DNA of 55,013 nucleotides, filler included, from Sphacelaria rigidula (lineage: Eukaryota), in NCBI GenBank assembly GCA_964200075.2. It is 5 parts of 5 records of this genome, joined end to end, with 100 filler letters (N's around TTAATTAATTAA, not from the genome) between each part and the next. Parts side by side here need not be neighbours in the genome. Positions count along the whole stretch, not along the records: positions 44,092 to 55,013 come from CAXNAA020005674.1; 4 more parts are not named here. One strand, given 5' to 3'. Each line of letters starts with the position of its first letter. Position 1 is the stretch's first letter. The notes beneath the pieces are model-generated. The model was not told the origin of the DNA. It ran no database searches and worked only from the letters and a program-made list of their open reading frames with translations. A program made the translations under genes and the position numbers. Below are positions 10,849-55,013 of this stretch, piece after piece.

Positions 10849-12299
10849 TGAAAGAGAACATTTCCCGAGAACACCACAACTTGTCAGGTTTACCGAATCA
10901 GTGCGAATTGAGCATATCGCTGTNNNNNNNNNNNNNNNNNNNNNNNNNNNNNNNNNNNNNNNNNNNNTTAATTAATTAANNNNNNNNNNNNNNNNNNNNN
11001 NNNNNNNNNNNNNNNNNNNNNNNCGCCGTTATACATACTCCTGGTGCAGCGTAGGCGGGGGGCGTTACTTTGGAATATCCGATACAGGCTGTCACTTTGT
11101 AGGCTGTGATCTTACGGCATATCTTATCCTGCACTTTGTGCTGTACGTTCCCACGACACCACCTCTATACTGGGGTTGGTCATGTCTGACCGTTGCACAA
11201 CCGTACTTTGTGCTGCGTGAGGTGTATTACTCCGGCTGGCGCTGTCGCGTTTGGACCGTCTGTCCTTGTGGGTGGCGTTGGGGTTTCATGCAATAATATT
11301 GTATACCTTCTGTCTTCTGGTATGGAAGACCGTTACATCGTTAGTCAGTTATACTGGACTGTAGTGAGGTGTAGTTACTGACTGTAGTTGTAGTTGGGTT
11401 AGGCTAGTTGCGAAAGACTGTCCCGGTCGATTGTCGACCGTTTGCTAGAATATCGTCTGTCTGGAAGCTTGCAATCACGTCCGCCTGGTGTCTTCTACAT
11501 AATCCTGCGTGCCTCGCAGCGTTTTCACTTGCCGCGGTTACTGTATTTACGTTTGGTGAGCGAGCGGGGGGGGGGCGGTGTGCGCCGGGGGGTAATGGGC
11601 TGCCCCCAACCGCTCTTGCAGCTTTTTCAGCGAAACGCCTGGCAGCGTCCTGGCCGTACTTCTCAGCCACGTCTTCCAGCTGAACGTGAATTGCATATGG
11701 GTCGCACTTCAGCGCTTCCACATGTGGCGACGGGATTTCCACGTGCTCTGCCATATCGTTGTCGCCGGTCGTACAGTGTGGCTTCCTGCGCTCGCCAACT
11801 CTTGATGATTCAGCCCACCAAAGCGGCGCACTACTCCAAGTTCAAGTATACTCGTGCGCCAGTTCGAGTTCAAGTATACTGATGTGACGTATTCGTCCAC
11901 CGAACTCGAAATGAGGTATTTCACAAATTCTGCTGACAAAAATCACATATATAAGAGTTTGTACTGTTTTGCGAGAGTTTTGTGGATGCACACAATTGGA
12001 CACACTTCGCCCGTCGCGTGATACCATTGGACAAACCCAACCCGACCGCTCCGGGATTTCATTTTCGGTATCTCCATGACGTGTGCGTCTGGAGCCTTCT
12101 CTGGTCTTCAACAGAAAAAATGGTCGCCGTCGGCATTTTCTGTTCCATCTCTTCTTTGTCAGGGCTTCTCAATGAGGCGTCTGGCCCGGGGACGGGAGGG
12201 GAGGGTTCCAAAGGAGTTAATTCAATCCGTAATACGTTCAAAATATTGAGCGCAAGGTCATTTCTGTATCGGAATTGGATGCCTCTATCTCCCCATCTC

Positions 12300-20860: not shown

Positions 20861-22120
20861 TTTTGTGTCTGAGGGTTCCAGTTGATTTCAGACTTCAAAC
20901 TATGTGTGCCCAGGTCGGCAGAGCCACGATGTTTCAAGTGACTGCCTGTACATACTGAAAATAGGGGGGAAATGACGTTGAAGATGTTGATCTGGACAGA
21001 GAGAACCAGACCGTGCTCAAGCGATGGACATGATGGGATTCCTTCCATCCATGCCATGACCCTGACCCCATGGGGCCTATGAGAAATCCACTCTCTAATT
21101 CGCACGGCATGAACCTCTTGATCGTCAACACCATCAGCATCGTTCTCAGTAATTTTTGGATGCGCGACGCTGCTGCTCATGATCTCCAAATTTCCGTACT
21201 TTCTCATCCTAGCACCATGTCAGGCACGTCCTTCACCGCAGTTACATTGGTGTGTAGCGGCCACAACAGCTGCTGTTCGTGCTCTTGTTTGGTTATCTTC
21301 GCAATTACGGGAAACGTGAGGTAGCACCTCGCGGGCGTGTGCTTCCCGACCGGTGCAGACAGATGCAGGACACTAGCTAGTGCAACAAGATTGTCCATCT
21401 ACTGATGTTAAGCGAGCTTTGCGGAGGAACAAAATCACCTAAACACCGACCACTCCCAGGCTTGAATAGATGTACTAGAAATATAGTTCATTTCTTATGA
21501 GCCAAATCGTCATTTGTAGGTGACGCGTGTATTTTCCATTGATATGATTCGTTGGATTACGGACCACTTCTGACACATGTAGCGTTCAGCTTGCATCTTC
21601 CATGAATATAGTACCCCAAATCGGCCCCCATTCCTACCTATAACAGTAATATGCTTACATCGGGTTCATTGGGGAAACTGAGGAAGCTGTGGTGTGGGCA
21701 ACTTTTAGCCGCTTTCAACCCTTTTGGGACCGGACCCCCGCTAACACAGGGTTGACCCTGTGTTCGTGAAATAATTAAAAATAAGTCTTCGAGCGACCTG
21801 CCCAATCACGGCGAGGCGAAATTTATCGACCAGACCCGAACGACCAGCGCAGGGATTGTTGTCGAGTGTGATGCCACTGCAAATATCGTGTGGGGGCCCT
21901 ATCCATGGCCCAAACAAGCCTCTCCAGGTTTTGAAGTGCATGGTGGNNNNNNNNNNNNNNNNNNNNNNNNNNNNNNNNNNNNNNNNNNNNTTAATTAATT
22001 AANNNNNNNNNNNNNNNNNNNNNNNNNNNNNNNNNNNNNNNNNNNNCTCCCCAAGGTATATACCTGTGCTCATACCTGCAATCGGGTATATCTATAACGG
22101 TATACCCTAACCCCGGGTAG

Positions 22121-32969: not shown

Positions 32970-33589
32970 NNNNNNNNNNNNNNNNNNNNNNNNNNNNNNN
33001 NNNNNNNNNNNNNTTAATTAATTAANNNNNNNNNNNNNNNNNNNNNNNNNNNNNNNNNNNNNNNNNNNNTGATTTTGATATTGAAAACAAGTTTTTTTTT
33101 CTTTTTTTTTTCTCAGTCAGCTTCGTCTGTACGTTATCTCTCTAAGGAGCCCAACTGTAGCATGATCGTGAGCATTGAAATACCCACACAATTAAACGTC
33201 CATAACGATACAGACTTATGGGACAGAGGAAGTATATATATCTATTGCTGTGTTTTTTTTTCTTTCCATGCCGTAGCGAGTACATACGTCCCGCTCCCGC
33301 AGAGCTCGCGAGTGAGAGATCATGTGTCAATATTGTCGTTCCTGAATAGCGGAGCCACAGTCTGGTTCCCCGGCCTTTTTCCCGTTTGTTCTTCGTGCAG
33401 CCTCCCTTCTCAAGCCCATGCGGCAGGGGTGGGTCTTTCCTTTCTGTTTTATGCGGAACCGGGACTGTACTAGGTCTTCCTTGACGCTTTTCTCGTTATT
33501 CTCCCCCCCTTTCTCTTCATACTCTTCTTGCGGTTATGTTCTGTTTCCTGTATTGTTTTTCACTCTGTTCTGCCCATCGCTACCCTGTT

Positions 33590-40200: not shown

Positions 40201-42165
40201 TCGCGTACAGTAGTACCGACGCGTCTCGCTTCCGTGGCGTGACACCAGCTATCCTGAGCAAAGAGTTCCCCCATGGATTGGAACTTCTTACGCCTCACCC
40301 CTTACAGGAAAAGGGTTAACTACAAGTGTATAGAAGCGAACCAGAGTTCAAATCACAGTCTGGTGAGGTAGGAGATACCTAGTATCCCCCTCCCCTGGGG
40401 GGACAGCATCATGTTTTGTCGGACGAAAATGCGTGAAAACGAGCAGTACGTGGAGGATCGAGCGTGGCGTGATGAGGGGTCTTCGGATCGGCGACGAATC
40501 GTACAGTGCGCATCGTGCAGATCAATGAATCGCATCGGATCGAGAATCGCATGCATTGTCAGGGGCAGCCTTTTGTTCGCGCCGTGCACCTGCGGAGCTC
40601 GTGGGTTAAAGTTCATGAACAGTTGTTGTGGTGCCCCGACAGCTGCTTCGTCAGAGACACGGCAGGCAGTCATTCTCCTGATGCTGTTGACGAGACTACT
40701 TGGTCAGCCAGTCGCCTTGTTTTCCAATGGTGCAGCTCCCGGCGATGAAATAGCACGCTCAGACATCCCCGTCTCCATGAGCCAGAGGCTTTGAGGCGGG
40801 GCGGGGGGGGAGGGTGGTATCCAGCTATGTATGCTGGAGAATACTTTTCTACACATAGGGGGGAAGGGGGAAAATACTCGATGGATTTCACCCCCCCTAA
40901 AACCACGCGCACACACGCACGCACACACCAAGTTTCAATTTTCTCTTGGTTTCAATTTTTGACACCCTCAATTCCGGTCATATTCCGTCCAAAACGGATC
41001 TTGATGGTATCCGCAGACTGAGTGGCGGTTCTAGCTCGATCAATTTTGGTGAAGTGAAGAGCGTTTCTTGTTGTTTACTCTACGTGCCTGCTTGCTTCCG
41101 GTGTAGTTGGACGTTTCGGAGAGGAGGCAAGTTGAATCGTAGACTTGCTTGCACTCAGCAAGCGTATGTAATGCCCGCTGCTGCCCATGTGCAACGTCCG
41201 CTATTCGAAATTTGATCCATTTGATCATTTTCTCATCCGAAGTGTGACGTTTTGTCAAACGGGCGACCCCAGACCCTAACGGCAGGCATGGAAGTCAAGA
41301 CGAAGGACGCTGACGATTTCATCTTGGCGAGGCACGTGTGGACGGCTCGGGAGGACTTCGAGCACCCTGATGAGGTGCGCATGAACGCCGTTGCTATTTG
41401 TATGGTAGTGGTATCTGTATGTCCATTTTGCAAATGGAGATTGGCTGTAATTCTCGGCCGCGTTCCATAGGTCAATCAACATTCTTCGCATTCAATGAAC
41501 TTGTTCAGCGGAATCATCGGCGTGGAGGCTAAACAATGTGTTGTGTGTGTTGTCGTCCGGTTTGTTGTGGACGCCGGTCTACACCTTTCCGTATATGTGG
41601 GCGCACCAGCTGGGGTCACACAGGAGGAATGCCAACACAGGAGTTTTTTTGTTGTTGTTGTTTTAGTGGCCCACCTTCCTTCTGCGTTGCTTGCCTTTTT
41701 TTTTCATCGCGAGAGGGGTTTAGCAGTCCCTTTCCCCCGTCGACCGTTCGGTCGAATTTTATGTACCCGCGACATCGTCGCTCTCCACTGTTGAGCGTTG
41801 TATGAGAAAAAATCCCAGATGGCTCCGAGATGCGAACCCACGACCCAACCGTCAGAACGTTTCGAGGTTACCAACTGAGCCACCGGGGCGACCAGCTACA
41901 CCGTACTGATTAATGTATCATGAGCTTTGTACTCCGTACGTCCTCTTGACGGAGACGTTGTTGTTGTCTTGATTCCTGTGGCCACCGCGTCTGGTGATGT
42001 CATGATGTTATCATGTATGGTATAAAGTGCGACACTCAATCAATCAATCATGGTAGGCGGGGTCAAGGATGGCGTTGTTAGTGAGTCGGTGCGTAGCGTG
42101 GTGAGATGTGTCTCCACGTCCAGGTGCTGCAGTACATGTCTCGACACCAACTGGGTTGATAAGGA

Positions 42166-42226
<61 letters not shown>

Positions 42227-42666
42227 CAACCTATCTTGGTGGTAGGTAGGCAGCAGCTCCGTGCCTCTTACCCCGCGTGGGTACCTGGTCTTGTCACAAC
42301 TACTATAACGACCTCTTACTCCCCGTTCCCCCCGCCGTCCGATCCCTTTGACCCTCGTGTCCCTATCGCAACATGACAACACTGACTACACACAAACGCG
42401 AGTAGATCGCCGTTATGCTGCGGATAGCGCTACACCGAGATCCGGAGCGGCGCATGACGGCACGTCAGCTGGCGGTCATGCTGTCGCCCACCGACAGCCT
42501 ATTCGACAGGAAGGGGCCGGGAGCGCGCCCCCTAGGCCAGGAGGCTCTGGCAGGGATCAAGGGTCTCGGCGAAGACTTGCGGTGGGACCCCGCCATTCCG
42601 CCGTGGATAGCCGAAGCGGGCAGGTGGTGGGAGCGCACTCCGCCCAGACCGATCGCACAGCAATGA
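34215..42666 (+). CDS. Divergent Ser/Thr-type protein kinase, spliced, 5'-partial; exons 34215-34370, 34839-34984, 35502-35686, 39648-39809, 41273-41374, 42406-42666
   Basis: All junctions are GT-AG and phase-compatible (2,1,0,0,0). Motifs: WTLVMPSMDMSLKDLL (hinge), LGFLHSHELVHCDVKPDNMMV (catalytic loop), LKLVDLG (DFG-like), SCPE (APE-like), DVYSAGLVV (subdomain IX), DPERRMTA (subdomain XI). Stop TGA at 42664-42666. Confidence 0.8.
34839..34984 (+). CDS. Kinase exon carrying the catalytic loop HCDVKPDN and DLG
   Basis: TAG acceptor, LGQDCALGLGFLHSHELVHCDVKPDNMMVNFLPSGEVHLKLVDLGHAG, GTGAGT donor at 34985. Confidence 0.88.
35502..35686 (+). CDS. Kinase exon, activation segment to subdomain IX
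   Basis: CAG acceptor, SGTRNTGTTLDTSCPEVLHLW...QDVYSAGLVVQMLLS, GTGAGT donor at 35687. Confidence 0.8.
38430..39195 (-). mobile_element. 5'-truncated LINE, post-RT C-terminal region, inside a kinase intron
   Basis: Minus strand reads AAKKILGCSKTMGNTALRAELGMYPLETNRHRRKLRW*YSVKNMQSKRLPTIV, typical of the region after non-LTR RT domains. Confidence 0.65.
41537..41893 (-). mobile_element. tRNA-derived SINE, full-length copy
   Basis: Reverse complement of 3632-3995, including the A/B-box head and a (CA)-rich tail. Confidence 0.8.
42168..42223. repeat. (CA)n microsatellite
   Basis: Seen directly; a shorter (CA)n lies at 23592-23620. Confidence 0.9.
42406..42666 (+). CDS. Kinase terminal exon (subdomain XI plus C-terminal tail)
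   Basis: TAG acceptor, IAVMLRIALHRDPERRMTARQLAVML...PIAQQ then stop. Confidence 0.75.
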   Translation: MAVMLRIALHRDPERRMTARQLAVMLSPTDSLFDRKGPGARPLGQEALAGIKGLGEDLRWDPAIPPWIAEAGRWWERTPPRPIAQQ

Positions 42667-43688: not shown

Positions 43689-43991
43689 GTGTTGTCGTCC
43701 CATCTATTCTGGACGCCGGTCTACACATTTCGGTATATGTGGGCGCATCAGCCGGGGTCACACAGGAAGAAGGTCAACACAGGAGCTTTTTCTTATTTAT
43801 TTGTTTTTTAGTACCCCACCTGCCGTCTGCGGTGCTTGTCCTTTTTTTTTTGTATCGCGAGAGGGGTTCAGCAGTCCCTTTGCCTCGTCGACCGTTAGGT
43901 CGATTTTTGTGTACCCACAACATTGCCGCTCTCCACTGTTGGGCATGGTGTGAGAAAAAATCCCAGATCGCTCCGAGAATTGAAGCCACGA
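43689..43991 (-). mobile_element. tRNA-derived SINE copy truncated by an assembly gap
   Basis: Colinear with 41545-41842. Confidence 0.75.
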
Positions 43992-44436
43992 NNNNNNNNN
44001 NNNNNNNNNNNNNNNNNNNNNNNNNNNNNNNNNNNTTAATTAATTAANNNNNNNNNNNNNNNNNNNNNNNNNNNNNNNNNNNNNNNNNNNNCAAAAAAAG
44101 GCAAAAGAAAAAAAAGACTAGGTGACCGGGGGGCCCCCCCCCCACCAAAAAAACTCCCCCCCAAATTAACCCCCCCCCCCCCCCCCCCCCCTGGTAAACT
44201 GTACTTTCTGTCGGCCAGAAATGTAAGAAAACTCAACATACGAAAAAACACAACTTGTTATGCTGGTGTTTACACCCGAAATAAGACTTCGAGCCTCAAC
44301 CCTAAATTGGCGTTTTTTCCTATCTCCGGGCCGCAACTGTATAGTACGTATATTTATTGTACTCTCTGAAGTAGAGACTCGCTCCCGAGCCATTTGCTGT
44401 AACTTATCGATCGCCGTCTGTCCTCTCCCTCCAAAG

Positions 44437-47400
44437 GGATATGAGAGAGTACCAGCAGCATACACGGGGTCTGTGCGTGGTATATGGAATGAAAAACGAA
44501 TATTCTCTGGCCTAGCTCGAATGATGTCGGAGATTCAAGAAGTCAGAATCTGAAAATCGTGCGGGGCTATTACGCATGCCCTACGCCGCATACATTCTTC
44601 ATATTTGAATAATCGAGATCACTGACTGGGTCATGGATAATGACGAAAAGCGACGCTAGCGCACACATCGTGTCGATATGTCATAAACCTCTCTACATCG
44701 GCCCGTCATTTTGGTGCACTCGCTCGCTGCGCTGCCCGCAGATCGGTGTACGACATCGAGAAACATGCAGACGCATATAATGGGGGAGGTGAGTGCTATT
44801 TAAAGAATTGTTGTGTGTGTACTAGATCGTGGAATGGACCATGCGTGTGCACACGTGTGCGTGTACGGGGTGTGTTTGTGTGTGTTGCCCGATTCCTTGG
44901 CGCAGGCACACGATATATGGTGTATATATTTCATTAGAGAGCACCCAAGTAATATTATAACTCGGGAAAGTGTAGAAGAGAGGGGAGGAGTCGACGAGTG
45001 ATCCGAGGTGGAGCTGTCTGCGCTGTCTGCACTGCCTGGCTACTGTACTGTACCACATTTGCACACTCTTGACCGTCAGTACTCGTACGTCACCCCGATC
45101 CCGTGTTCTGCGTGAATACACGGTATGGCCGGGTGTATCTGAGTCACTCGAACATGTTCCTGATTAGTGGCTGTATATTTCGAATAAAGCTTGTAAAGCA
45201 ACGAGCTTCCTCTACGGGTGGACGGAAAAGACGACCATCGAGCTATTTTCCCAAGGTACGACGACGGGGGTCGCCCCGGTGGCTCAGTTGGTAACCTTGG
45301 AACCTTCTGACGGTCGGGCCGTGGGTTCGGATCCCGGATCGATCTGGGTTTTTTTCTCACACAATGCCAAACTGTGGAAAGCGACTATGTCATTGGTATA
45401 TACAAAAACTCGACTTGATGGTCGACGAGGGCATCGGACTGCTGAACCCCTTTCGCGATAACAAAAATAAAAGGCAAGCACCGCAGAATTAAGGAGGAAA
45501 ACAAAAAACCAAATAGAAAACAAAAAGCTCCCGTGTTGACCTTCCTCCTGTGTGTCCCGACTGGTGCGCCCACATACACCAAAAGGTGTAGACCGGCGTC
45601 AAGAAAAGAAGGGACGAAAACACACACAACACACGACAAACGTGTTCCTCGTGCCGGTTTAGTCTTGTGCAATCTTGATTCTACGATGATGGGAGACCTT
45701 ATTTTTTGTGGGTGCACTGACGCCCGAATGATCTGGCTAACGACTACGCGAAGTCCTGTGATTTAGTGCGTGGTCTCGTAGTCAATCAAACCTCTAACGC
45801 ATGCACCCTGCTGTTTTAGCACATTATTCGTGATCAACTGACATGGTCAATACACGTGCGTTTCGCCTTTGCTGGCGATTGGGTTATGTAGGCCCTGACG
45901 TTGTGAAGGACAGGACGATCGAGAGAATGGATTCTGACCTGCTAGACACCTTAGGCGGAGGGAACGCCTGGTATCTTGCGGTTGCGTATGACCTGGGCAG
46001 TGTCAGTCCCAATGGCAACTACCTCGAGACCGATGCCATGGGGGTGGGCCACGGAATTTGCGGTGACACCCCGCAGGTGAGTGTACTTCCCCCCGTCTCG
46101 AGGGGAGGGGGGGGCAGTGCGGCATCAGCAGGTGTTGTCTGTGCGAATATTCAACAGCGCCAATGTTGAGCGGAGTTCCCACTCCCACTCGTGCCGATGA
46201 AGAATCAGATTGTATAAATGCACATTATTGGTTTGATGTCTCGACTCTCGACATATCAAGTAGGCAGTTCGGTTCTCATACACTGTACATCGTAATCATC
46301 TTGGCGAATCCATGCGATGTCCCTCGAAAGACGCAGCACCATTTCGCTCCATGCCGTTGTCGACAGGAGCTTTTACTGACGAAGGTCGTCCTGCTTCCCC
46401 CCCCCCCTCCCCCCACCCCACCCCCTTCCTTCCCTCCACTTTTTTGTTGTGAACCCCATCTTCGGCAAATAGAGTGGTGACGACAATCCGATCGTATACA
46501 GCACCCCCAACAGTGAGTGGCCAATTCTAACGGAGTACACGGCAGGCTCGATCATCGACATCAAGGTCGTCTTCACGAACTACCACTGGGTGCGTTATGG
46601 TTCTCTGAAATAATTTGAAATAAACACAGTGCACATGCACTTTGTCGTCATCGCGGCTCTCTCACACCTCGTGTATCTTGTTTTCATGCCACTCCTTCAG
46701 AAAATTAGCACCAGATATATGTAGTAGAATCCAGTAGCAATGAGGCCGCGCCCGCGAAACACAAGTTTCTCTCTTTTGTGTCAAATACGAGCTCTCCATC
46801 TTGCTCGCGAGCATGCCGCACACAAGTGTATCACAACCCTACACTCTACCTGCAGTATAAATGATTGAACTCAAATATCACCGCACTTGCCCTTCCGTCC
46901 CGTTTTCACAGGGCCACATCGAGTTTTTCTTGTGCGACACTGGCGACATGGCGGACCCCAACGGAGTAGTGACCCAGGAGTGCTTCAATACGTATCCGCT
47001 GGATCGTGCTCTCGATGATTCCTTCAACAGTCCTGTCGACCTGGACTACCCCGGGCGGTACTACATCGATCCCCCGTGCCGCGGTGCGACTGGCGAGACA
47101 GACCAGGAGAGACCGGAAATGGACGGCGTTTTGAATGAGGGTTACATTAATCATATGCGGTACCAGCTACCCGACATCACCTGCGAGAGATGCGTCCTCC
47201 AGACGCGTTACCGTGAGTTTTTATCAGTGTCGTGTGTGATGACTGTGGTAGGCACTCTCTCTTTGATAATGAACACCAGGACGTGACGAACGTGCCGAAG
47301 TATCATCGTTCTTGTCATAGGTGCCCCCACGGTCCTGCTCCCCCGAGTGAAGGACTTCATCTCGGGCGCGACCACATTTTCAGATCTCTCCCCATTAGGG

Positions 47401-50400
47401 GTTTTCAATGCCACTGTACTTTGTATAATTCCTGTTGCTCGTATTGTGCAAACGTTTGGGGCTGAAGCAGAGAAAATGCGATCGATGTGAGGATTTGTGG
47501 CATGGAATATGACCACTTCGTGTCAGGGCACAACAAGATGATGATATCTGCCGTGTTGCTACACTTGCCGGAGTCATCAATCACCCATTTTTAGCCACTC
47601 CATTACGCACTGATGCAGCCGCCCATGTTCCTGGGCTAGTGATGTGGTAACGCCATGACGTCATCCTGAAATTGGTGTGAATACTAATGCGAAATATTTG
47701 TTGCGCTGGTGCAAGTGATCGATTCATGAACGGAAATTATTTAGTAATTGTGAAAGTAGCGCAGTTTGGCGTCGAAGGTTCAGTCCTATTGTGCGTGGTA
47801 CTGCAGCGGTCAATTCTTGCGTGGTAGCTAGCTACGTGAGTAACACCCAGATTAAGAGGTACGTCAGATGTAGCGAACACGATAAGCGCACCGGATGGAA
47901 AAAGAGGCGAAGACCATAAGAACATGTTGCTTGTCACCACAGGTCACGATCTACTATGCTACTGTACACCGTCCGCGGTGCCTTTTGGGCCGTTGATTGT
48001 GTAGCTTACACGTACTTTAAAAATAGAATCATAGCCTTTGTAATATAGTTGTTGTGCGTTACGCAACAAATTTACGACGAAAGTAGCCATTAACCGACGG
48101 TGGAATGTGAGAACGTATGACCGGTTCGCGCGGCATCAGGGGCGTGCACGAAAATATTCGGTTCACAGGAAGCGTCTACGTGTCATACTGTATACTGTAC
48201 CATGAGTGGAGAGGTGAATGTTTGACCGCATAACCAAGATACCCCTACCAACAAACTTAATACTTTTTCAGTAAAATCTGACGTGGGGGCGCCGTTTCTG
48301 TCTAGAATGTGGCTTGCCGCGATTGCACGACCCATATTGTCACCTGCTACACCGGTGCGTGCGTGTGTGCATTTATTTTGTGATCATTTTGCGCGCATTT
48401 CCAAGACTTTTATGATATTCGGGCCACTTTCCGGATCGGTTCACGTGTCTTTTGAAGTGTTTCAGTATATGGCATGATCTGGGCGCGCATGCTATTGTTA
48501 GTTGGTACTCCTTCTTCTCTGACGACTCAGCTCTTACGCAGCGCGTCGACGTGCCCATGTGTGAACTCCGTACAACTTCCGGTCATACTAAAGAGTAATT
48601 GCCTGAGCCAGTCGAGTCGATACTCATCACGATCCGCGCACCCGTTGATATACGTACGTGCCGCTCGCCACCCCTGTTATTCCTTGTTGGAAGACTCGGG
48701 TAAGGGCTGCAAGAGCCGCGGATACGATGAATTCGAGCCTGACTCATGGCCAAGTGTTTGCGCCCCAAACAAGGAGGATTGGATCGCGGTAGACAGCCAC
48801 GAGTGTCAGCAACCAGATAGGACATGGGGCAACCTGTTCTGGGCGTGCACGGACATCACCCTGGTGGCAGGTGGGAATCAATTTGCTGGGGGAAAGTGAT
48901 AATTGCGACATATTGTGCGTTCACTTGAACGTGTCGGAAATGCAGATACGATACGAAGCCTTCGCAGTATACTCGTACTCATGATTGATACGAGCTGGGC
49001 CAGCAGTAAATCACGCATTCACATTTTACAACACAACTCATCATGTTTACCAAAGCAGTCCGACTTGAGCATATCCCCTGTGAACTGCAGACCAATCTGA
49101 TAACGCACGGTACCGCCGTTGAACGAAGAAGAACAAATAAAAAATATGCAGTGCACAGTACATGGCCTTGATGACGAAGCGAAAAAATATACACCGTGTC
49201 AGGATTCGAAGTCGTGACTCCATGACTGAAGTCTCCCGTATAAGTTTGGTCGAAACTCAAAAACGATATACAGTTTTTCTCGTCCCAACATTGAAGTCAG
49301 TCAGAGAAGATGTACTCGTTCTAAAACAAAGTAGTTGGGAGCTAGCACATTTCAAGTCGTCGTCGTACAAAAGCGCAAACCTTCACAACGTTTCTGGGAA
49401 AGAGACCTTGAACCTTCGCACCAATCTGCTATGCAACTTTTAAAGGTCAAGATGTTTTTTGTTCACTCGATTTTCATCTTGACCTTTTGACCGTTTTTGG
49501 GGGGTCCGACGGGATCCAAGTGCCCCCGGAAACCCTGGGACCCCCAGAAAAAGGTAAGGTGGTCAAGAAATTGAAGAAAAGACTCGATCTCTGAAAGTGC
49601 CTCAACGACCCATAGCATATTTGTGCAAAATTCCATGCTCTAAGTTATTCTCGAGACAGCGTGAAGTTTTGTGGATGAGTGTTCGGAGATGATGAGCGTG
49701 AACGAGCTTGCCTCTGTACACCTTGTGAGACGGCACAAGATCCTCCAATGAGGCAACGTCGCCGTGTATTGGATATTGACGTAGATCACGTGCAGCGACT
49801 GTTTATCACAGTAGGATATTGTTGTCAAGTGGCTAGGCCATATAGCGTGCACTTGATCAATTGTGAGAACTGGAAAGACTAGTAGTAAGCTGTCAGCAGA
49901 ATATATATCTTGAAGCAAATGACCCCAGGGTTAAATGACCACGCGTTCCGGTGACGTAGGGTTGATCTGGTGGGAAGAGTAGTCACAGGGTGGGTTCGAC
50001 GAACTCGATCGTCCACTGTTGTCAGCCTCGTACGGTCCACATCAGCTCTCCGCTCTCCGGGTGATCTACATGAGTAATGCTACTGCACGGGTGAACTTTT
50101 CTGCCCAAACGTTTTCTGAGGCTGCACACTAAGGCCCAGATATTTATCATTGAGAGGCTCCTACGACAAAGAGCATTGTAGCCTTGCTTCGGCCAAAAAT
50201 GTGCTCGTGAAAATCGTCTGAATTCCTTTTCCGCTGCACGATTCCAGCGAGCTCCACAGCGACTGTGCATCCTCTCCAAATGCTACTACCCACTTGGTAG
50301 CACACGCGGCCATTTATTTGGCTCTCCCCCCCAACCCCTCCACACGACCATTGATCCATCCCTGCGGAGGGGTCAATTTTGTCTGTGGAGGTGTTTGATT

Positions 50401-53400
50401 CCTCCACGGGGTCAAGTTTGACCCCTCCAGAGGGATTAAACACCGCTAGAGCAACAGTGACCTTTGGTGGGATTTCATGTTGTGTTGGATCCTCCAAAGT
50501 GCACACAACCCTTGCAGGGAGGCTCCATCTCCCTCCCTCTAGAGTGACTTCGTGTGGGCTATTCCTCTAGTGGTGTTTATTCCTTGAGGAGGAGGATACT
50601 ATCCACCCTCTAGGTGGAGTAAACACCTCCACGGGCTCTTTCCCGTCTGGAGCGGTAGAATTTCGTGTGGAGGCAGTTTTGGGGGTAGCCAAATCGCCGC
50701 GTGTGAGGGACATGCTGCCGTGAAGGCAAAGTCGCAAACACAGTTTGAAGTTCACCACTTCAGCGCACATAGTGAGTGGGCTGCTGCCTTTTCCCCTCCG
50801 TTGGGGGTTTGGAATCGTTGTTTGTTGCAAACGAAAACTCCGTTCCTCTCAAGTGTTACGAGATGTAGAGATGAGATGGTTTTCATGCCCGTGTTTGATT
50901 CGTTGATTGGTTGTCGCTCATCAACAAATCCCCCGGGAATCCAGCCGTGCCACATCATAGACCTACTCAAGATGAAACAAAACGGAAACGCCCAATGGAT
51001 ACAACGGAAGAAAACAGAAAAGTAGAACAGACCGAGAACTGAGATCTAAAACTGGTCAATATACGGTTGGTTTTATCGCAAGATATTGGACAAATCGTTG
51101 GCTCGACGAAGCAACGTACCACGAAACTGTTCTACCGTATACCTTTGCGATGCAGAGATCTTTTGATGTGACAACACTTTTTACGCAGTGGATATTGACG
51201 TGAAAAACATTTCGGCACTGTTTTTTACGGTAGGATACTGTAACCGATTGACTACGCCACACATCTCGAAGCTTATTTTGTAAGAGCAAACAAGATAAAC
51301 CCGGATCAACAGTTCAGTATCCTGAAACCGATGGCGCAGTCTATGTTGATCACGTAGAATGGACTTTCGTTGTGAAGGGCAATCGCAGCGTGGGTTTCAC
51401 GGTTGCGATTCCCGACCGTCTTCATTCTCACACTCCCCTACTATGGTCATCTGCTTTCTGGAAAGACTGTTATTTTTGCTTTGGCCGAGTAAACACTGGT
51501 GGTGCAACACAGGTGAATACTTTGCTACACCCTCAGAACACCTCCCGCAGGTAGAGACCCTTTAGAGATCCTCTATAGGTCCAGAACCCCCTCCGGCGAC
51601 CCTCTGCACCCCCCCACAAGGTCCCGAACCCCTAGTGGCGACCCTTTGCACACCCTCTACGATATGCAGCCTTGCGGCGAGAGAAAAATGTCCGCCAGTG
51701 AAACACTCGGACTTCTATCGTTTTGTTCAACGATGCAAGTAAACGTCCCAGCATCTGTACATTTATCCTCTACGACGAGTGTGTCGAGTGGGGCAGTATC
51801 ACACCAAATTAGCCATTTTTCAACAAGGAGTACACATGTTTTGCACCCACGACGGGCGCCGAGACTGTCCTCCGCGCTCGCTCGTGGTGTGTACTCTCGG
51901 ATCCACTAGCCACTTATATACCTTACCGTCGTGACCGTGTATACAACGAATATCTGTATACAGTTTGCGCCGACCTCTGAAACGGATATGTTCAGTGCCT
52001 AGCCGCATACAGCTAACCACCGTCACTGCGTTCATGCTTTTGTAAACTTGGTATCGCGCGACATTGGGAGAGAGCAGAAGGGGTAGGTACGGCACAAGCC
52101 TCTCCCACCCTCGCACCAGCACAAGATGCAGGTCCGACACCAACGCCTTCCGCCTTCGCAGCAGCACAAGAGGGGGGTTCGACACCAACCCCTCCCACCC
52201 TTGCACCAGCACAAGATGCAGATCCGACACCAACCCCGTCCGCCTTCGCAGCAGCACAAGAGGGCGGTTCGACACCAACCCCTTCCACCCTCGTATCAGC
52301 ACAAGAGGGGGGTTCGACACCAACCCCTTCCACCCTCGCACCAGCACAGCAGGCAGGTCCGACAACGACCGCTTCCACCTCCGCAGCAGCAGAAGGGGGG
52401 GGTTCGACACCAACGCCTTCCACCTTCACAGCTTTCCCCAATCCGGTTTCCTCGACCAATACAACATCTCCCATCGTCGACGAGCCAGTATACCTTGGAT
52501 GCTTTACCGACAAAAATAATGCGGGGCGCATAATGATACTTGGCTTGAAGGCCCCGGGGAATATGACAACGGCGGTGAGCAGGGGGGCAGGAGGGCTGCT
52601 GACTTATGTGAAACAGGGGTGGTATGCACGATTGTCTGTGAGATTTGTTCTGTGTTGGTAATTGTGCGTGTCGTTGACCATGTAGTGTTACGCACATGGT
52701 ATCCCTGGTACTGCACACCGCCGTGGTTCTTACACAAACGAAGGCCGTGTACCGCTGTTTTTTCTCCCTGTTTGATCCAGACAGGAATGAATCTTGTCAC
52801 TTTCCCAGCATCTCGAAGTACGTTTCCCAACCATCATATCCGCAGACAGTAGTACCGATATTACGTTTGGTTGTCGAAAGCACGATATCAATGAAACTGA
52901 GCGCGTTTCAGCTGAACAACAAAGCAAGCCGAAAGTCGTGAACGACGCTGCGATATGTTGTGCGTCATTGCTGCTTGAGGTATTACCGCAAAAATCCGTT
53001 TGAGATAACATAGTGTTTCATTGCTTTTGGTGTGCCTTTTGATCGCTCTCGTCTGTCGCTACAAAAAACCGACACAGATGTGCGCGCTGGAATGTGAAGG
53101 CTCCCAGCTTTTCGGGACACAGTATGGTTACGAGGTGAGCATACTATATTGTGCTGACTTTAAGTTGAATCTGGACACTGCTTCTGGATCGTTCCAGCCG
53201 CAATGCGGGATAGGAGGCCATAATGGAATGAGGAACCTTTGCCTGGTATGGGGTGATTGACCATGGCATCTCTGACCGTTGCGCTAGCGTGTCGAAGTGT
53301 AAGGTTACTCAGATGTAGGAGCACGTTCACATCTGATACGCAAACGTCGAATGTCTTTCACTGCCCGGGGAGTAATGATACGATGAGCCTGGGGGGGCGG

Positions 53401-53887
53401 GGGGAGAGGTATTTGGGCCACTTTCCCCCCAACATCTAGCTTTATTCATCGCTGAAATCAGTCACGCTTGTTCCAACGCGCTTGTGCCCAGTAAGCCCCA
53501 CTCATTCATACCATCTGACACCGTTTTCACCCAAATACAAACGCACCGCGAGCCGATAGGGTCGACTGACACACCTGTGAGCTCTTGTGTTTCGTCGAAT
53601 CAAACATCCCCGCCGCCCCCCTGTTGTAGCGTGTCGCTCCGGGGCTCTCACGGACAAACATATGTGTACTCGTATGTGTCTTCACAACAGCTATTTGTCT
53701 CGTACCTGACGTGGTACGTCCATTCTTTTTATTCAACGTTGTTCGACACCACGAGCAGTGTTGGTGCGGTGACGAAGAAACGAACCACCTACAGCATGGA
53801 GAGTCCGAGATGTGTGACTACTCGTGTGAAGGAAAAGCTGATGAGGTCTGCGGAGGATATTGGAGCATGAGCGTGTGGGAATATTGA
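44437..53887 (+). CDS. LPMO-like (AA15 / chitin-binding type 3) domain + PTS-rich repeat linker + WSC domain protein, spliced, 5'-partial; exons 44437-44468 (tentative), 44742-44788, 45892-46076, 46473-46589, 46912-47212, 48694-48870, 52078 (or 52087)-52574, 53078-53134, 53759-53887
   Basis: Phase-compatible GT-AG exons give GYERVPAA..YNGGGPDVV..HGICGDTPQ..YTAGSIIDIKVVFTNYHWGHIEFFLCD..TQECFNTYPL..RYQLPDITCERCVLQTRYHSGKGC..GNLFWACTDITL, matching the AA15-type LPMO motif order. A repeat linker follows, then the WSC domain YLGCFTD..MTTAMCALEC..FGTQYGYECWCG..CDYSCEGKADEVCGGYWSMSVWEY and stop TGA at 53885-53887. Confidence 0.82.
45269..45640 (+). mobile_element. tRNA-derived SINE, full-length copy in an LPMO-gene intron
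   Basis: Head ggtcgccccggtggctcagttggtaacc...gtgggttcgg, body matching 3632-3995, acacacaacacacg tail. Confidence 0.8.
45892..46076 (+). CDS. LPMO-like gene exon (HGICGD motif)
   Basis: TAG acceptor, GPDVVKDRT...GVGHGICGDTPQ, GTGAGT donor at 46077. Confidence 0.82.
46473..46589 (+). CDS. LPMO-like gene exon ending in the putative second His-brace histidine (TNYHW)
   Basis: TAG acceptor, 117 nt phase 0-0, SGDDNPIVYSTPNSEWPILTEYTAGSIIDIKVVFTNYHW, GTGCGT donor. Confidence 0.82.
46912..47212 (+). CDS. LPMO-like gene exon (GHIEFFLC...CERCVLQ)
   Basis: CAG acceptor, lies within ORF 46861-47286, GTGAGT donor at 47213. Confidence 0.85.
48694..48870 (+). CDS. LPMO-like gene exon, end of the LPMO domain (LFWACTDI)
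   Basis: AAG acceptor, phase 1-1, HSGKGCKSRGYDEF...GNLFWACTDITLVA, GTGGGA donor at 48871. Confidence 0.8.
52078..52574 (+). CDS. Linker-repeat exon plus start of the WSC domain (YLGCFTD)
   Basis: Open + frame not listed in the ORF track: PTLAPAQDAGPTPTPSAFAAAQEGGS... then VYLGCFTDKNNAGRIM..NMTTA. GTGAGC donor at 52575. The acceptor is at 52078 or 52087 (both phase 1). Confidence 0.78.
52095..52430 (+). repeat. Coding 45-bp (15-aa) tandem repeat, about 7.5 copies
   Basis: GACACCAAC-like anchor recurs at 52136, 52181, 52226, 52271, 52316, 52361 and 52406. Confidence 0.9.
53078..53134 (+). CDS. WSC domain middle exon
   Basis: CAG acceptor, MCALECEGSQLFGTQYGYE, GTGAGC donor. Confidence 0.85.
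53759..53887 (+). CDS. WSC domain terminal exon
   Basis: CAG acceptor, CWCGDEETNHLQHGESEMCDYSCEGKADEVCGGYWSMSVWEY then stop. Confidence 0.85.
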   Translation, partial: CWCGDEETNHLQHGESEMCDYSCEGKADEVCGGYWSMSVWEY

Positions 53888-55013
53888 GCCGATACAGGCG
53901 GTCTGTGGGTAAGAAGCGAGTTGCGTTTCTATCTGCTACAGCGTAGTCTACGCTGTATCCGATTTTTTGTTAGTGCTACGTTTCGCAAGCTCTCATGAAC
54001 GGACCCGACCAGACTCTCCGGAAAACCCGTGAGCCACAGCGCCCGGCGTTTCACCCATTTGATGTGGCACGGACTTGTCTCCTGACGTCTATTCCTTTAT
54101 CTTACGCATGAGTGTTTACCAATGTGCTTCTTTTGTAACTAAATAGTGTTTGACTATTGTAGTAACGGTTTATGTGAAGTAACGGTGTACGACACACTTC
54201 TCCCTGAGCAATGTGCAATCAACTGGTACACGTCGGAATACTTTTTCTTTGCTTTGTCGTGGCATCATTTGTGGGTTCCAAGCCTGTCTGTGGCATGCTT
54301 CCGTACAGCCGGTTGTGCACGAGTGACTGGCCATTTGGAGCTGTAAGTCTGCCCAAGGCCTGGGTATCCTGTTGGCCTAGCTTCATACGGTTAATCCTCG
54401 TACAAGTGACTATTAATTGAGAGCTATAGTAGACTGGTATTGCTTTTAGTTGACCATAGTTCAGGTGACATATAACAGACTAGCCGAGCTGGGTCGAACC
54501 CGTACCTGACCAGCGCCAGGATTAAGCTGCTGTCCTAACGGTATGGCGAAAATCCGAAAATCCCTGGATGCGGGCTGCGGTGACCCAGAACGGAAGGGTT
54601 TCCGAGCGATCGATCGAGGTGTGCATTATTTTTCTTACTGTGAAAGGTATCAGCAATGAAATCTCTACGTCGTATGGCGATCTGGAGTTGGTTCCGGAAT
54701 GGTGACGCGAAACCGTTTGGTACGAAAGGCACTGCCGCCTAGTCGGGCGACCGCCTGACCGGGGCTGCACGGGTGACTACTTCGTACTTTATCTTTATCG
54801 GCATTTTGGAGCGTCCCCAGTTTTTCTTCACAACCACTTGTTTTCCACGTTTCGGTATGAGTGTCGCTTCCGTGCAAGACCGTTTCCCCCGAAGCCATGC
54901 GGCAGAGGCCGACCGATTGGGAGCTTGTTTTTTTGCTCTTTCTATTTTTTTTTTAATCTTTTTTGTCATCTCTTTGTCTACTTTATTTGCTCTTTTATTT
55001 TTTCTGTTTTTCT

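What the first reader, a model, noticed from the sequence alone, without database searches (positions are those of the whole stretch)
44437..53887. Hidden multi-exon gene for an LPMO-like enzyme fused by a mucin/AGP-like stalk to a WSC carbohydrate-binding domain
Seen: nine exons (the first tentative) joined by phase-compatible GT-AG introns, mostly invisible in the ORF track. They encode HGICGD, YTAGSIIDIKV..TNYHWGHIEFFLC, CERCVLQ and LFWACTDI, then a Pro/Thr/Ser/Ala repeat and a complete WSC domain. Established: this motif order is that of copper lytic polysaccharide monooxygenases of the AA15/chitin-binding-type-3 group, and WSC domains bind polysaccharides. Inference: a secreted wall-remodelling or defence protein that the WSC module tethers to algal wall glycans. 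LPMOs usually carry CBMs, so the WSC partner and the substrate (cellulose, glucan, alginate or fucan) deserve testing.
Basis: partly seen in the sequence, partly recalled or inferred. Interest (0 to 1): 0.75.

Follow-up and report, generated by a model that had tools for sequence, protein, structure and literature searches.

The report
Seaweed copper enzyme lacking catalytic glutamate
This is a real, transcribed brown-seaweed gene of a known copper-enzyme family with a known wall-binding tail, but it belongs to an old subgroup that has swapped the glutamate these enzymes normally need for an asparagine, so it may do something other than ordinary cellulose or chitin cutting.

Summary
The gene is real. 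Eight GT-AG exons (44742-53887) form one open frame; RNA contigs bridge five of seven introns, including the one from the LPMO exon into the stalk/WSC exon. The product has an AA15 LPMO fold, a Pro/Thr/Ala/Ser stalk and a complete WSC domain. It is not hidden: a 5'-truncated public model exists (Sphacelaria rigidula). AA15 in brown algae and AA15+WSC are both in print. All 13 paralogues checked and the viral homologue keep Glu. Best reading: a secreted, wall-tethered copper-brace protein with a rewired active site, an atypical LPMO (0.45) or a non-lytic oxidase/copper binder (0.35). A Glu supplied by another loop was not excluded.

The parts
44742..44788 (+). First exon present (second exon of the gene by homology): L2-loop motif EKHADAYN; Lys at the TdAA15A Tyr24 position (44761-44763), Asn at the Asn30 position (44779-44781)
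   Evidence: tblastn to P0002/P0004; AG/GT ends and phase; column mapping to 5MSZ. No RNA contig covers it.
45892..46076 (+). Exon with the brown-algal insertion and HGICGD; the public model starts at an internal Met here (45927)
   Evidence: no RNA contig covers it
46473..46589 (+). Exon with the second brace histidine (46584-46586) and Asn at the Ala89 position (46578-46580)
   Evidence: RNA joint to next exon
46912..47212 (+). Largest catalytic-domain exon (GHIEFFLC to CERCVLQ)
   Evidence: both joints in RNA contigs
48694..48870 (+). Last catalytic-domain exon: Asn at the Glu182 position (48831-48833), Phe at the axial Tyr184 position (48837-48839)
   Evidence: spliced to 52078 in 3 of 3 RNA runs
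52078..52574 (+). Exon with the P/T/A/S stalk (45-nt unit, 8 copies, 52073-52432) and the start of the WSC domain (from 52491)
   Evidence: pLDDT < 50 over residues 254-381; RNA cover
53078..53134 (+). Middle WSC exon
53759..53887 (+). Last coding exon: end of WSC domain and stop; no membrane or GPI tail follows
   Evidence: PF01822
53888..54991 (+). 3' untranslated region, about 1.1 kb
   Evidence: RNA contigs run on to 54991 (X1) and 54891 (X2)
44092..44741 (+). Remainder of intron 1 up to the contig start; the signal-peptide/His1 exon is inferred to lie beyond it
   Evidence: Linker at 43992-44091; no His1-exon match in this stretch; paralogues have about 1.5 kb between the His1 exon and the next

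Best explanation
A secreted brown-algal AA15-fold protein that binds one copper in a histidine brace and is held in the cell wall by a flexible stalk and a WSC domain. Its clade has rewired the surface around the copper (Glu182 to Asn, Tyr24 to Lys, Ala89 mostly to Asn), so it most likely works as an atypical, attenuated or re-targeted LPMO on a non-crystalline or anionic wall glycan during wall remodelling, beside 13 or more conventional Glu-type, mostly CBM1-bearing paralogues that would handle cellulose. Shown: gene, splicing of five introns, fold, domains, residue changes, single clade. Inferred: signal peptide and His1 (from orthologues), copper binding, wall location, activity and substrate.
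For: Fold: the Laminaria orthologue model matches TdAA15A 5MSZ first (Foldseek E 5.5e-10; Z 18.8, rmsd 2.9, 184 aligned, model 11-305 on chain 1-195); the window's own truncated protein gives Z 12.1, rmsd 3.4, 147 aligned to 5MSZ and Z 16.2, rmsd 1.2, 88 aligned to the Kremen WSC domain. His1 in 7 of 7 clade rows that have an N-terminus, His2 and axial Phe in 9 of 9. The 9 Asn rows of 49 form one side of a branch (SH-aLRT 100, quick tree) and are 54-67% identical to the window's domain, in Sphacelaria, Laminaria, Ectocarpus, Pylaiella and Scytosiphon: long conservation. WSC in 12 of 14 clade proteins scanned, CBM1 as well in 3. SmAA10A E60N keeps 28% of the initial rate (bioRxiv 541292), and the effect of this residue is context-dependent (PMC12186267), so Asn need not abolish cleavage.
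Against: Every functionally characterised LPMO has Gln or Glu there, and NcAA9C Q164N gave minimal product through rapid inactivation (PMC10472438); Glu60 mutants lost 83-97% of final yield. His1 is not seen for this gene. No substrate evidence at all; the anionic-glycan idea rests on one Tyr-to-Lys column, and the domains are strongly acidic overall (45-55 D+E against 18-30 K+R in 7 clade rows). P0001 has no PF03067 hit.
Confidence: 0.45

Rival explanations
1. Non-lytic histidine-brace protein: it binds copper in the wall and acts as an O2-to-H2O2 oxidase or a copper buffer, for example feeding neighbouring LPMOs or wall peroxidases, without cutting glycan itself.
For: Asn at both positions of the Glu/Asn pair (pair described in PMC9344471); no column gains a clade-specific invariant Glu/Gln; surface Tyr24 lost in 7 of 7; Q164N keeps oxidase activity but loses product formation; brace proteins without lytic activity exist (X325/Bim1, PMC10952591).
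Against: No fourth protein ligand shown; no GPI tail as in Bim1 (the frame ends with the WSC domain); 3 clade members carry a cellulose-type CBM1; the alternative-site mapping is from a profile alignment, not coordinates.
Confidence: 0.35
2. An ordinary AA15 LPMO on cellulose or a similar beta-glucan, with the catalytic Glu/Gln supplied from another loop of the roughly 100-residue-larger algal domain.
For: In AA10s the Glu can sit at different backbone positions. Eleven columns are at least 85% Glu/Gln in the clade (P0002 numbering 21, 37, 83, 92, 108, 151, 169, 207, 210, 258, 273), and their distance to the copper could not be measured.
Against: These columns are shared, wholly or partly, with Glu-type relatives; three active-site-surface changes coincide in one clade.
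Confidence: 0.12
3. This copy lacks the signal-peptide/His1 exon and is a metal-free, glycan-binding or decaying gene.
For: His1 exon not on the contig and not found in the genome; no RNA contig over the first two exons present; the public model starts at an internal Met.
Against: The contig ends 650 bases upstream at a repeat; the same protein search also missed the His1 exons of paralogues known to be present, so the blank is uninformative; the frame is intact and five introns are spliced.
Confidence: 0.08

Closest known systems
CAZy AA15 LPMOs (TdAA15A, PDB 5MSZ; AaAA15A)
   Same: Fold, His2 at His91, aromatic axial residue (Phe as in AaAA15A Phe187), His1 in orthologues; family already reported in Phaeophyceae (PMC5823890) and amplified in brown algae (bioRxiv 2024.02.19.579948).
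   Different: Asn for Glu182, Lys for surface Tyr24, Asn for Ala89; domain about 293 residues against 195; substrate unknown.
AA15+WSC multimodular proteins (PMC8615602)
   Same: The paper lists WSC (PF01822) among modules attached to AA15.
   Different: The passage names no organism, active-site variant or function.
Glu-type brown-algal AA15-like proteins and the viral homologue (Ectocarpus proteins annotated 'EsV-1-166'; L031:2962-4089)
   Same: 41% identity over 243 residues to the viral ORF; same exon boundaries in the paralogues at the GH and last-exon junctions.
   Different: They keep E-x-F/Y (13 of 13 paralogues; viral ORF), mostly the CPHC loop, and mostly carry CBM1.
Chitin-active AA10 (SmAA10A/CBP21, CbpD)
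   Same: Asn as one member of a Glu/Asn pair beside the copper; the pair can flip (PMC9344471).
   Different: They always keep one Glu; this clade appears to be Asn/Asn.
X325/Bim1 LPMO-like copper proteins
   Same: Histidine brace without shown lytic activity, at the cell surface.
   Different: Fungal, GPI-anchored, Asp as fourth ligand; not found as sequence relatives here.

Membership tests
AA15 LPMO | Signal peptide followed by N-terminal His1 | tested here: inconclusive
   Exon absent from the contig and not found; present in 7 of 7 clade rows with an N-terminus
AA15 LPMO | Second brace His (TdAA15A His91) | tested here: met
   His at 46584-46586 aligns to the His of QAPH in 5MSZ
AA15 LPMO | Axial Tyr/Phe (Tyr184) | tested here: met
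   Phe at 48837-48839
AA15 LPMO | LPMO beta-sandwich fold, closest to AA15 | tested here: met
   5MSZ best LPMO match for both models; profile E 1.4e-22 to 5MSZ
AA15 LPMO | CAZy/dbCAN AA15 HMM hit | not testable with these tools
PF03067 (LPMO_10) | Score above the gathering cut-off | tested here: inconclusive
   No hit for the truncated P0001; hits for P0002, P0004, P0005 and P0011, P0013, P0014, P0041, P0042; full-length P0012 also missed
Catalytically canonical LPMO | Second-sphere Glu/Gln at one of the two known backbone positions | tested here: not met
   Asn two residues before the axial Phe (9 of 9) and Asn at the Asn30 column (7 of 7, and in the window's exon); by sequence alignment only
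Catalytically canonical LPMO | A Glu/Gln headgroup near the copper from any other position | not testable with these tools
   Model coordinates are not returned
Catalytically canonical LPMO | Cu binding and oxidative glycan cleavage | not testable with these tools
   Needs bench work
WSC domain (PF01822) | Pfam hit above cut-off, eight Cys, WSC fold | tested here: met
   58.9 bits against 27.8, profile 1-82 of 82; 8 Cys; Z 16.2 to Kremen, 14.6 to yeast Wsc1
Chimeric arabinogalactan protein | PAST-rich region with clustered AP/PA/SP/TP glycomodules, glycosylated | tested here: inconclusive
   67% P+A+S+T over 136 residues; TP 12, PT 11, AP 3, PA 3, SP 2; glycosylation not testable
X325/Bim1 | GPI anchor | tested here: not met
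   The frame ends directly after the WSC domain; judged from the sequence, no predictor run

The most novel reading that the evidence does not exclude
An old, brown-alga-specific branch of AA15 has naturally replaced the Glu/Gln that every characterised LPMO carries, and acts either as an oxidative enzyme on an algal wall polymer such as alginate or fucan with a new amide-only second sphere, or as a WSC-tethered wall copper oxidase that supplies H2O2 for wall remodelling or cross-linking.
Probability: 0.3. Interest if true: 0.8.

Novelty: new variant of a known kind. Interest (0 to 1): 0.47.

Why it matters
The architecture is ordinary, the active site is not. The role of the second-sphere Glu/Gln is an active question in LPMO chemistry and has been probed with engineered mutants that inactivate. 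A natural clade that kept the brace but carries Asn across three brown-algal orders, with Glu-type paralogues in the same genome as controls, makes the question testable in an evolved protein. I found no characterised brown-algal LPMO in the searches run, so it could also show how seaweeds remodel their walls oxidatively.

Tried and rejected
Tentative exon at 44437: the only stop-free, phase-compatible readings resemble nothing in the homologues' N-termini; rejected. Upstream DNA (before 43992) as part of the locus: it is another contig behind a linker; rejected. Search for the His1 exon in the genome: N-terminal protein query, 0 candidates; degenerate pattern, 1 hit without His, control also 1; full-length orthologue, 57 matches, none covering residues 11-28. 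These blanks say nothing, since known paralogue His1 exons were missed too; a profile search of this genome was not available. No RNA contig covers 44742-44788 or 45892-46076: not used as evidence. No run is on record as RNA; the four small-share runs are guesses, three were laid. Single exons give no LPMO Pfam hit. The careful tree did not finish; the quick tree is quoted. A viral origin of this gene was considered: the viral ORF is Glu-type, CBM1-bearing and sits on another branch; direction of any transfer not tested. 'EsV-1-166' gave 0 papers. Earlier scan findings: none. No complex prediction was run: no partner is proposed.
Full report
Setting. The window is five contigs of about 10.9 kb joined by N-plus-linker spacers; the finding lies on the last, window 44092-55013 = C5674. 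DNA before 43992 is another contig and is not known to be adjacent. A public protein, P0001 (CAM9480330.1, 475 aa, named Sphacelaria rigidula by its source, contig 10922 bases), is 100% identical to the largest exon.

The observation. All quoted motifs are present. Eight exons with AG/GT ends give one open frame that contains P0001 from codon 28 on. A profile from 40 Glu-type homologues ranks four of these exons first among 2421 six-frame segments. In one search, contigs of 3 of 3 putative RNA runs (one study; RNA status is a guess, but the joints are GT..AG and absent from the DNA-like run X5) bridge introns 3, 4 and 5; one X2 contig bridges introns 6 and 7 and continues about 1 kb past the stop (X1 shows the two outer pieces with 56 letters between). 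Introns 1 and 2 rest on homology only. Orthologues begin with a signal peptide and His, followed about 20 residues later by the motif found in exon 44742-44788. In two paralogues the His1 exon lies about 1.5 kb upstream of the next; here the contig ends 650 bases upstream. Three searches did not find that exon, but one search also missed paralogue His1 exons seen.

What the protein is. P0001 has a full WSC domain and no PF03067 hit; full-length orthologues hit PF03067 (P0012 did not). The model of the Laminaria orthologue P0002 (pLDDT 80.6) matches AA15 5MSZ first (E 5.5e-10; Z 18.8, rmsd 2.9, 184 aligned, its His on His1), then AA13 and AA10s. The model of P0001 (pLDDT 72.4; residues 254-381 disordered) matches Kremen and Wsc1 WSC domains (Z 16.2, rmsd 1.2, 88 aligned; Z 14.6, rmsd 3.5, 92 aligned) and 5MSZ (Z 12.1, rmsd 3.4, 147 aligned). 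The stalk is eight copies of a 45-nt unit, 67% P/A/S/T. The frame ends with the WSC domain, so the product should be soluble and held by binding.

What is already known. AA15 was reported in Phaeophyceae and viruses (PMC5823890; passages and sections 7 and 9). AA15 is listed among families amplified in brown algae, and WSC orthogroups expanded (bioRxiv 2024.02.19.579948; passages). WSC is named as a module on AA15 proteins (PMC8615602; passages). Ectocarpus genomes hold 320-444 WSC proteins (bioRxiv 307165; passages). In my own searches WSC is on 12 of 14 clade proteins scanned and on Glu-type P0024 and P0067. The architecture is therefore not new. PMC11468063 and PMC10154629 (term searches) do not mention WSC. 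Supplements were not read; those of PMC5823890 (domain architectures, alignments) and the brown-algal genomics preprint may bear on novelty.

What is unusual. Profile alignments place the family's E-E-F on Glu182-Glu183-Tyr184 of TdAA15A, its second His on His91 and its L2 loop Tyr and Asn on Tyr24 and Asn30. That Glu182 is the second-sphere residue is my inference from its place two residues before the axial aromatic, as Glu139/Tyr141 in AfAA11B (PMC12186267; passages). The window's gene has G-N-L-F there. Of 201 proteins held, 114 show this motif: 86 Glu, 26 Asn, 1 Gln, 1 Phe (the set includes fragments and near-duplicates). In a tree of 49 rows that I chose (48 of these proteins and the viral ORF), the 9 Asn rows form one side of a branch (SH-aLRT 100; quick method, the careful search did not finish), inside the brown-algal/viral Glu-type group and next to Glu-type rows that also lack the CPHC loop, two of which carry WSC (support 86). 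In the clade His1 is kept in 7 of 7 rows with an N-terminus, His2 and Phe in 9 of 9; Asn stands at Glu182 in 9 of 9 (Glu in 40 of 40 others), at Asn30 in 7 of 7, at Ala89 in 8 of 9 (1 of 40 others); Lys stands at Tyr24 in 7 of 7. Tyr24 borders the flat binding surface in TdAA15A. Named clade members come from Sphacelaria, Laminaria, Ectocarpus, Pylaiella and Scytosiphon; many others are unnamed. In the own genome the last-exon search gave 14 matches including this gene; all 13 others keep Glu and 9 of 13 show a CBM1-like motif in the DNA fetched. The one viral relative found (L031, 1 of 39 candidate stretches; its 335,593-base contig length fits EsV-1 by my recall) keeps Glu and carries CBM1.

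What that residue does. Gln/Glu is conserved in over 96% of AA9, AA10 and AA11 sequences and in all characterised LPMOs; NcAA9C Q164N keeps oxidase activity but gives minimal product (PMC10472438; passages). SmAA10A E60N keeps 28% of the initial rate, and Glu60 mutants lose 83-97% of yield (bioRxiv 541292; passages). The residue belongs to a Glu/Asn pair that can flip between two backbone positions (PMC9344471; PMC10154617; passages). If Asn30 is the other position, which I infer from the alignment and did not test on coordinates, this clade is Asn/Asn. Against over-reading: up to 4% of sequences in other families also lack the residue; eleven columns are at least 85% Glu/Gln in the clade, none clearly clade-specific but some only partly shared (37, 83, 273), and the algal domain is about 100 residues larger than TdAA15A, so a loop could supply a substitute.

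How it most likely works. Secretion and signal cleavage expose His1 (inferred); His1 and His2 bind Cu over the Phe (inferred from conservation and fold); WSC binds a wall glycan and the stalk lets the domain reach its target (established for WSC as a class from my own knowledge, untested here). I give 0.45 to an atypical LPMO acting on a non-crystalline or anionic wall glycan, 0.35 to a non-lytic oxidase or copper binder (cf. X325/Bim1, PMC10952591; passages), 0.12 to an ordinary LPMO with a hidden Glu, 0.08 to a His1-less copy. The acidic overall composition argues against a simple cationic alginate-binding surface. The axial Phe is as in the chitin-active AaAA15A (PMC8393829; passages), so chitin of epiphytes or pathogens is not excluded.

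Verdict. Real gene, known family, known architecture, with an active-site variant that I did not see described in the listings of searches (an open-access library only). It works like an AA15 protein; I file it as an AA15-like variant, not as a canonical LPMO. Interest 0.47.

Noticed in passing
window 10924-11023, 21947-22046, 32970-33069, 43992-44091: Four identical N-plus-linker spacers: the window is five contigs of nearly equal length, probably sorted by size, so neighbourhood across them means nothing.
   Followed up: yes
window 45268-45600; similar reverse-strand copies near 41570-41890 and 43700-43990: A very high-copy dispersed repeat in intron 2 of the gene (DNA depth about 100,000 against about 28 in unique DNA, also abundant in RNA contigs); the other two copies were judged by eye.
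   Followed up: no
window 42406-42666 +: An 86-codon frame that looks by recall like the end of a protein-kinase domain; Pfam gives no hit. It lies on another contig.
   Followed up: partly
G000 contigs C14905, C20753, C8572, C20539, C13973, C16052, C14963: Contigs that match only 5' exons of the family: the assembly splits these genes, and the family may exceed 14 copies.
   Followed up: no
L031:2962-6741: The algal-virus AA15-like+CBM1 gene lies near a staphylococcal-nuclease-like ORF and a thaumatin-family ORF: two possible wall-directed proteins close together.
   Followed up: partly
P0020 (Pylaiella littoralis): A family member whose His1 position aligns to Gly: a second kind of non-canonical copy, or a gene-model error.
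   Followed up: no
P0006, P0007: Public models with a methyltransferase domain in front of the LPMO domain; probably two neighbouring genes merged, since His1 must be N-terminal.
   Followed up: no
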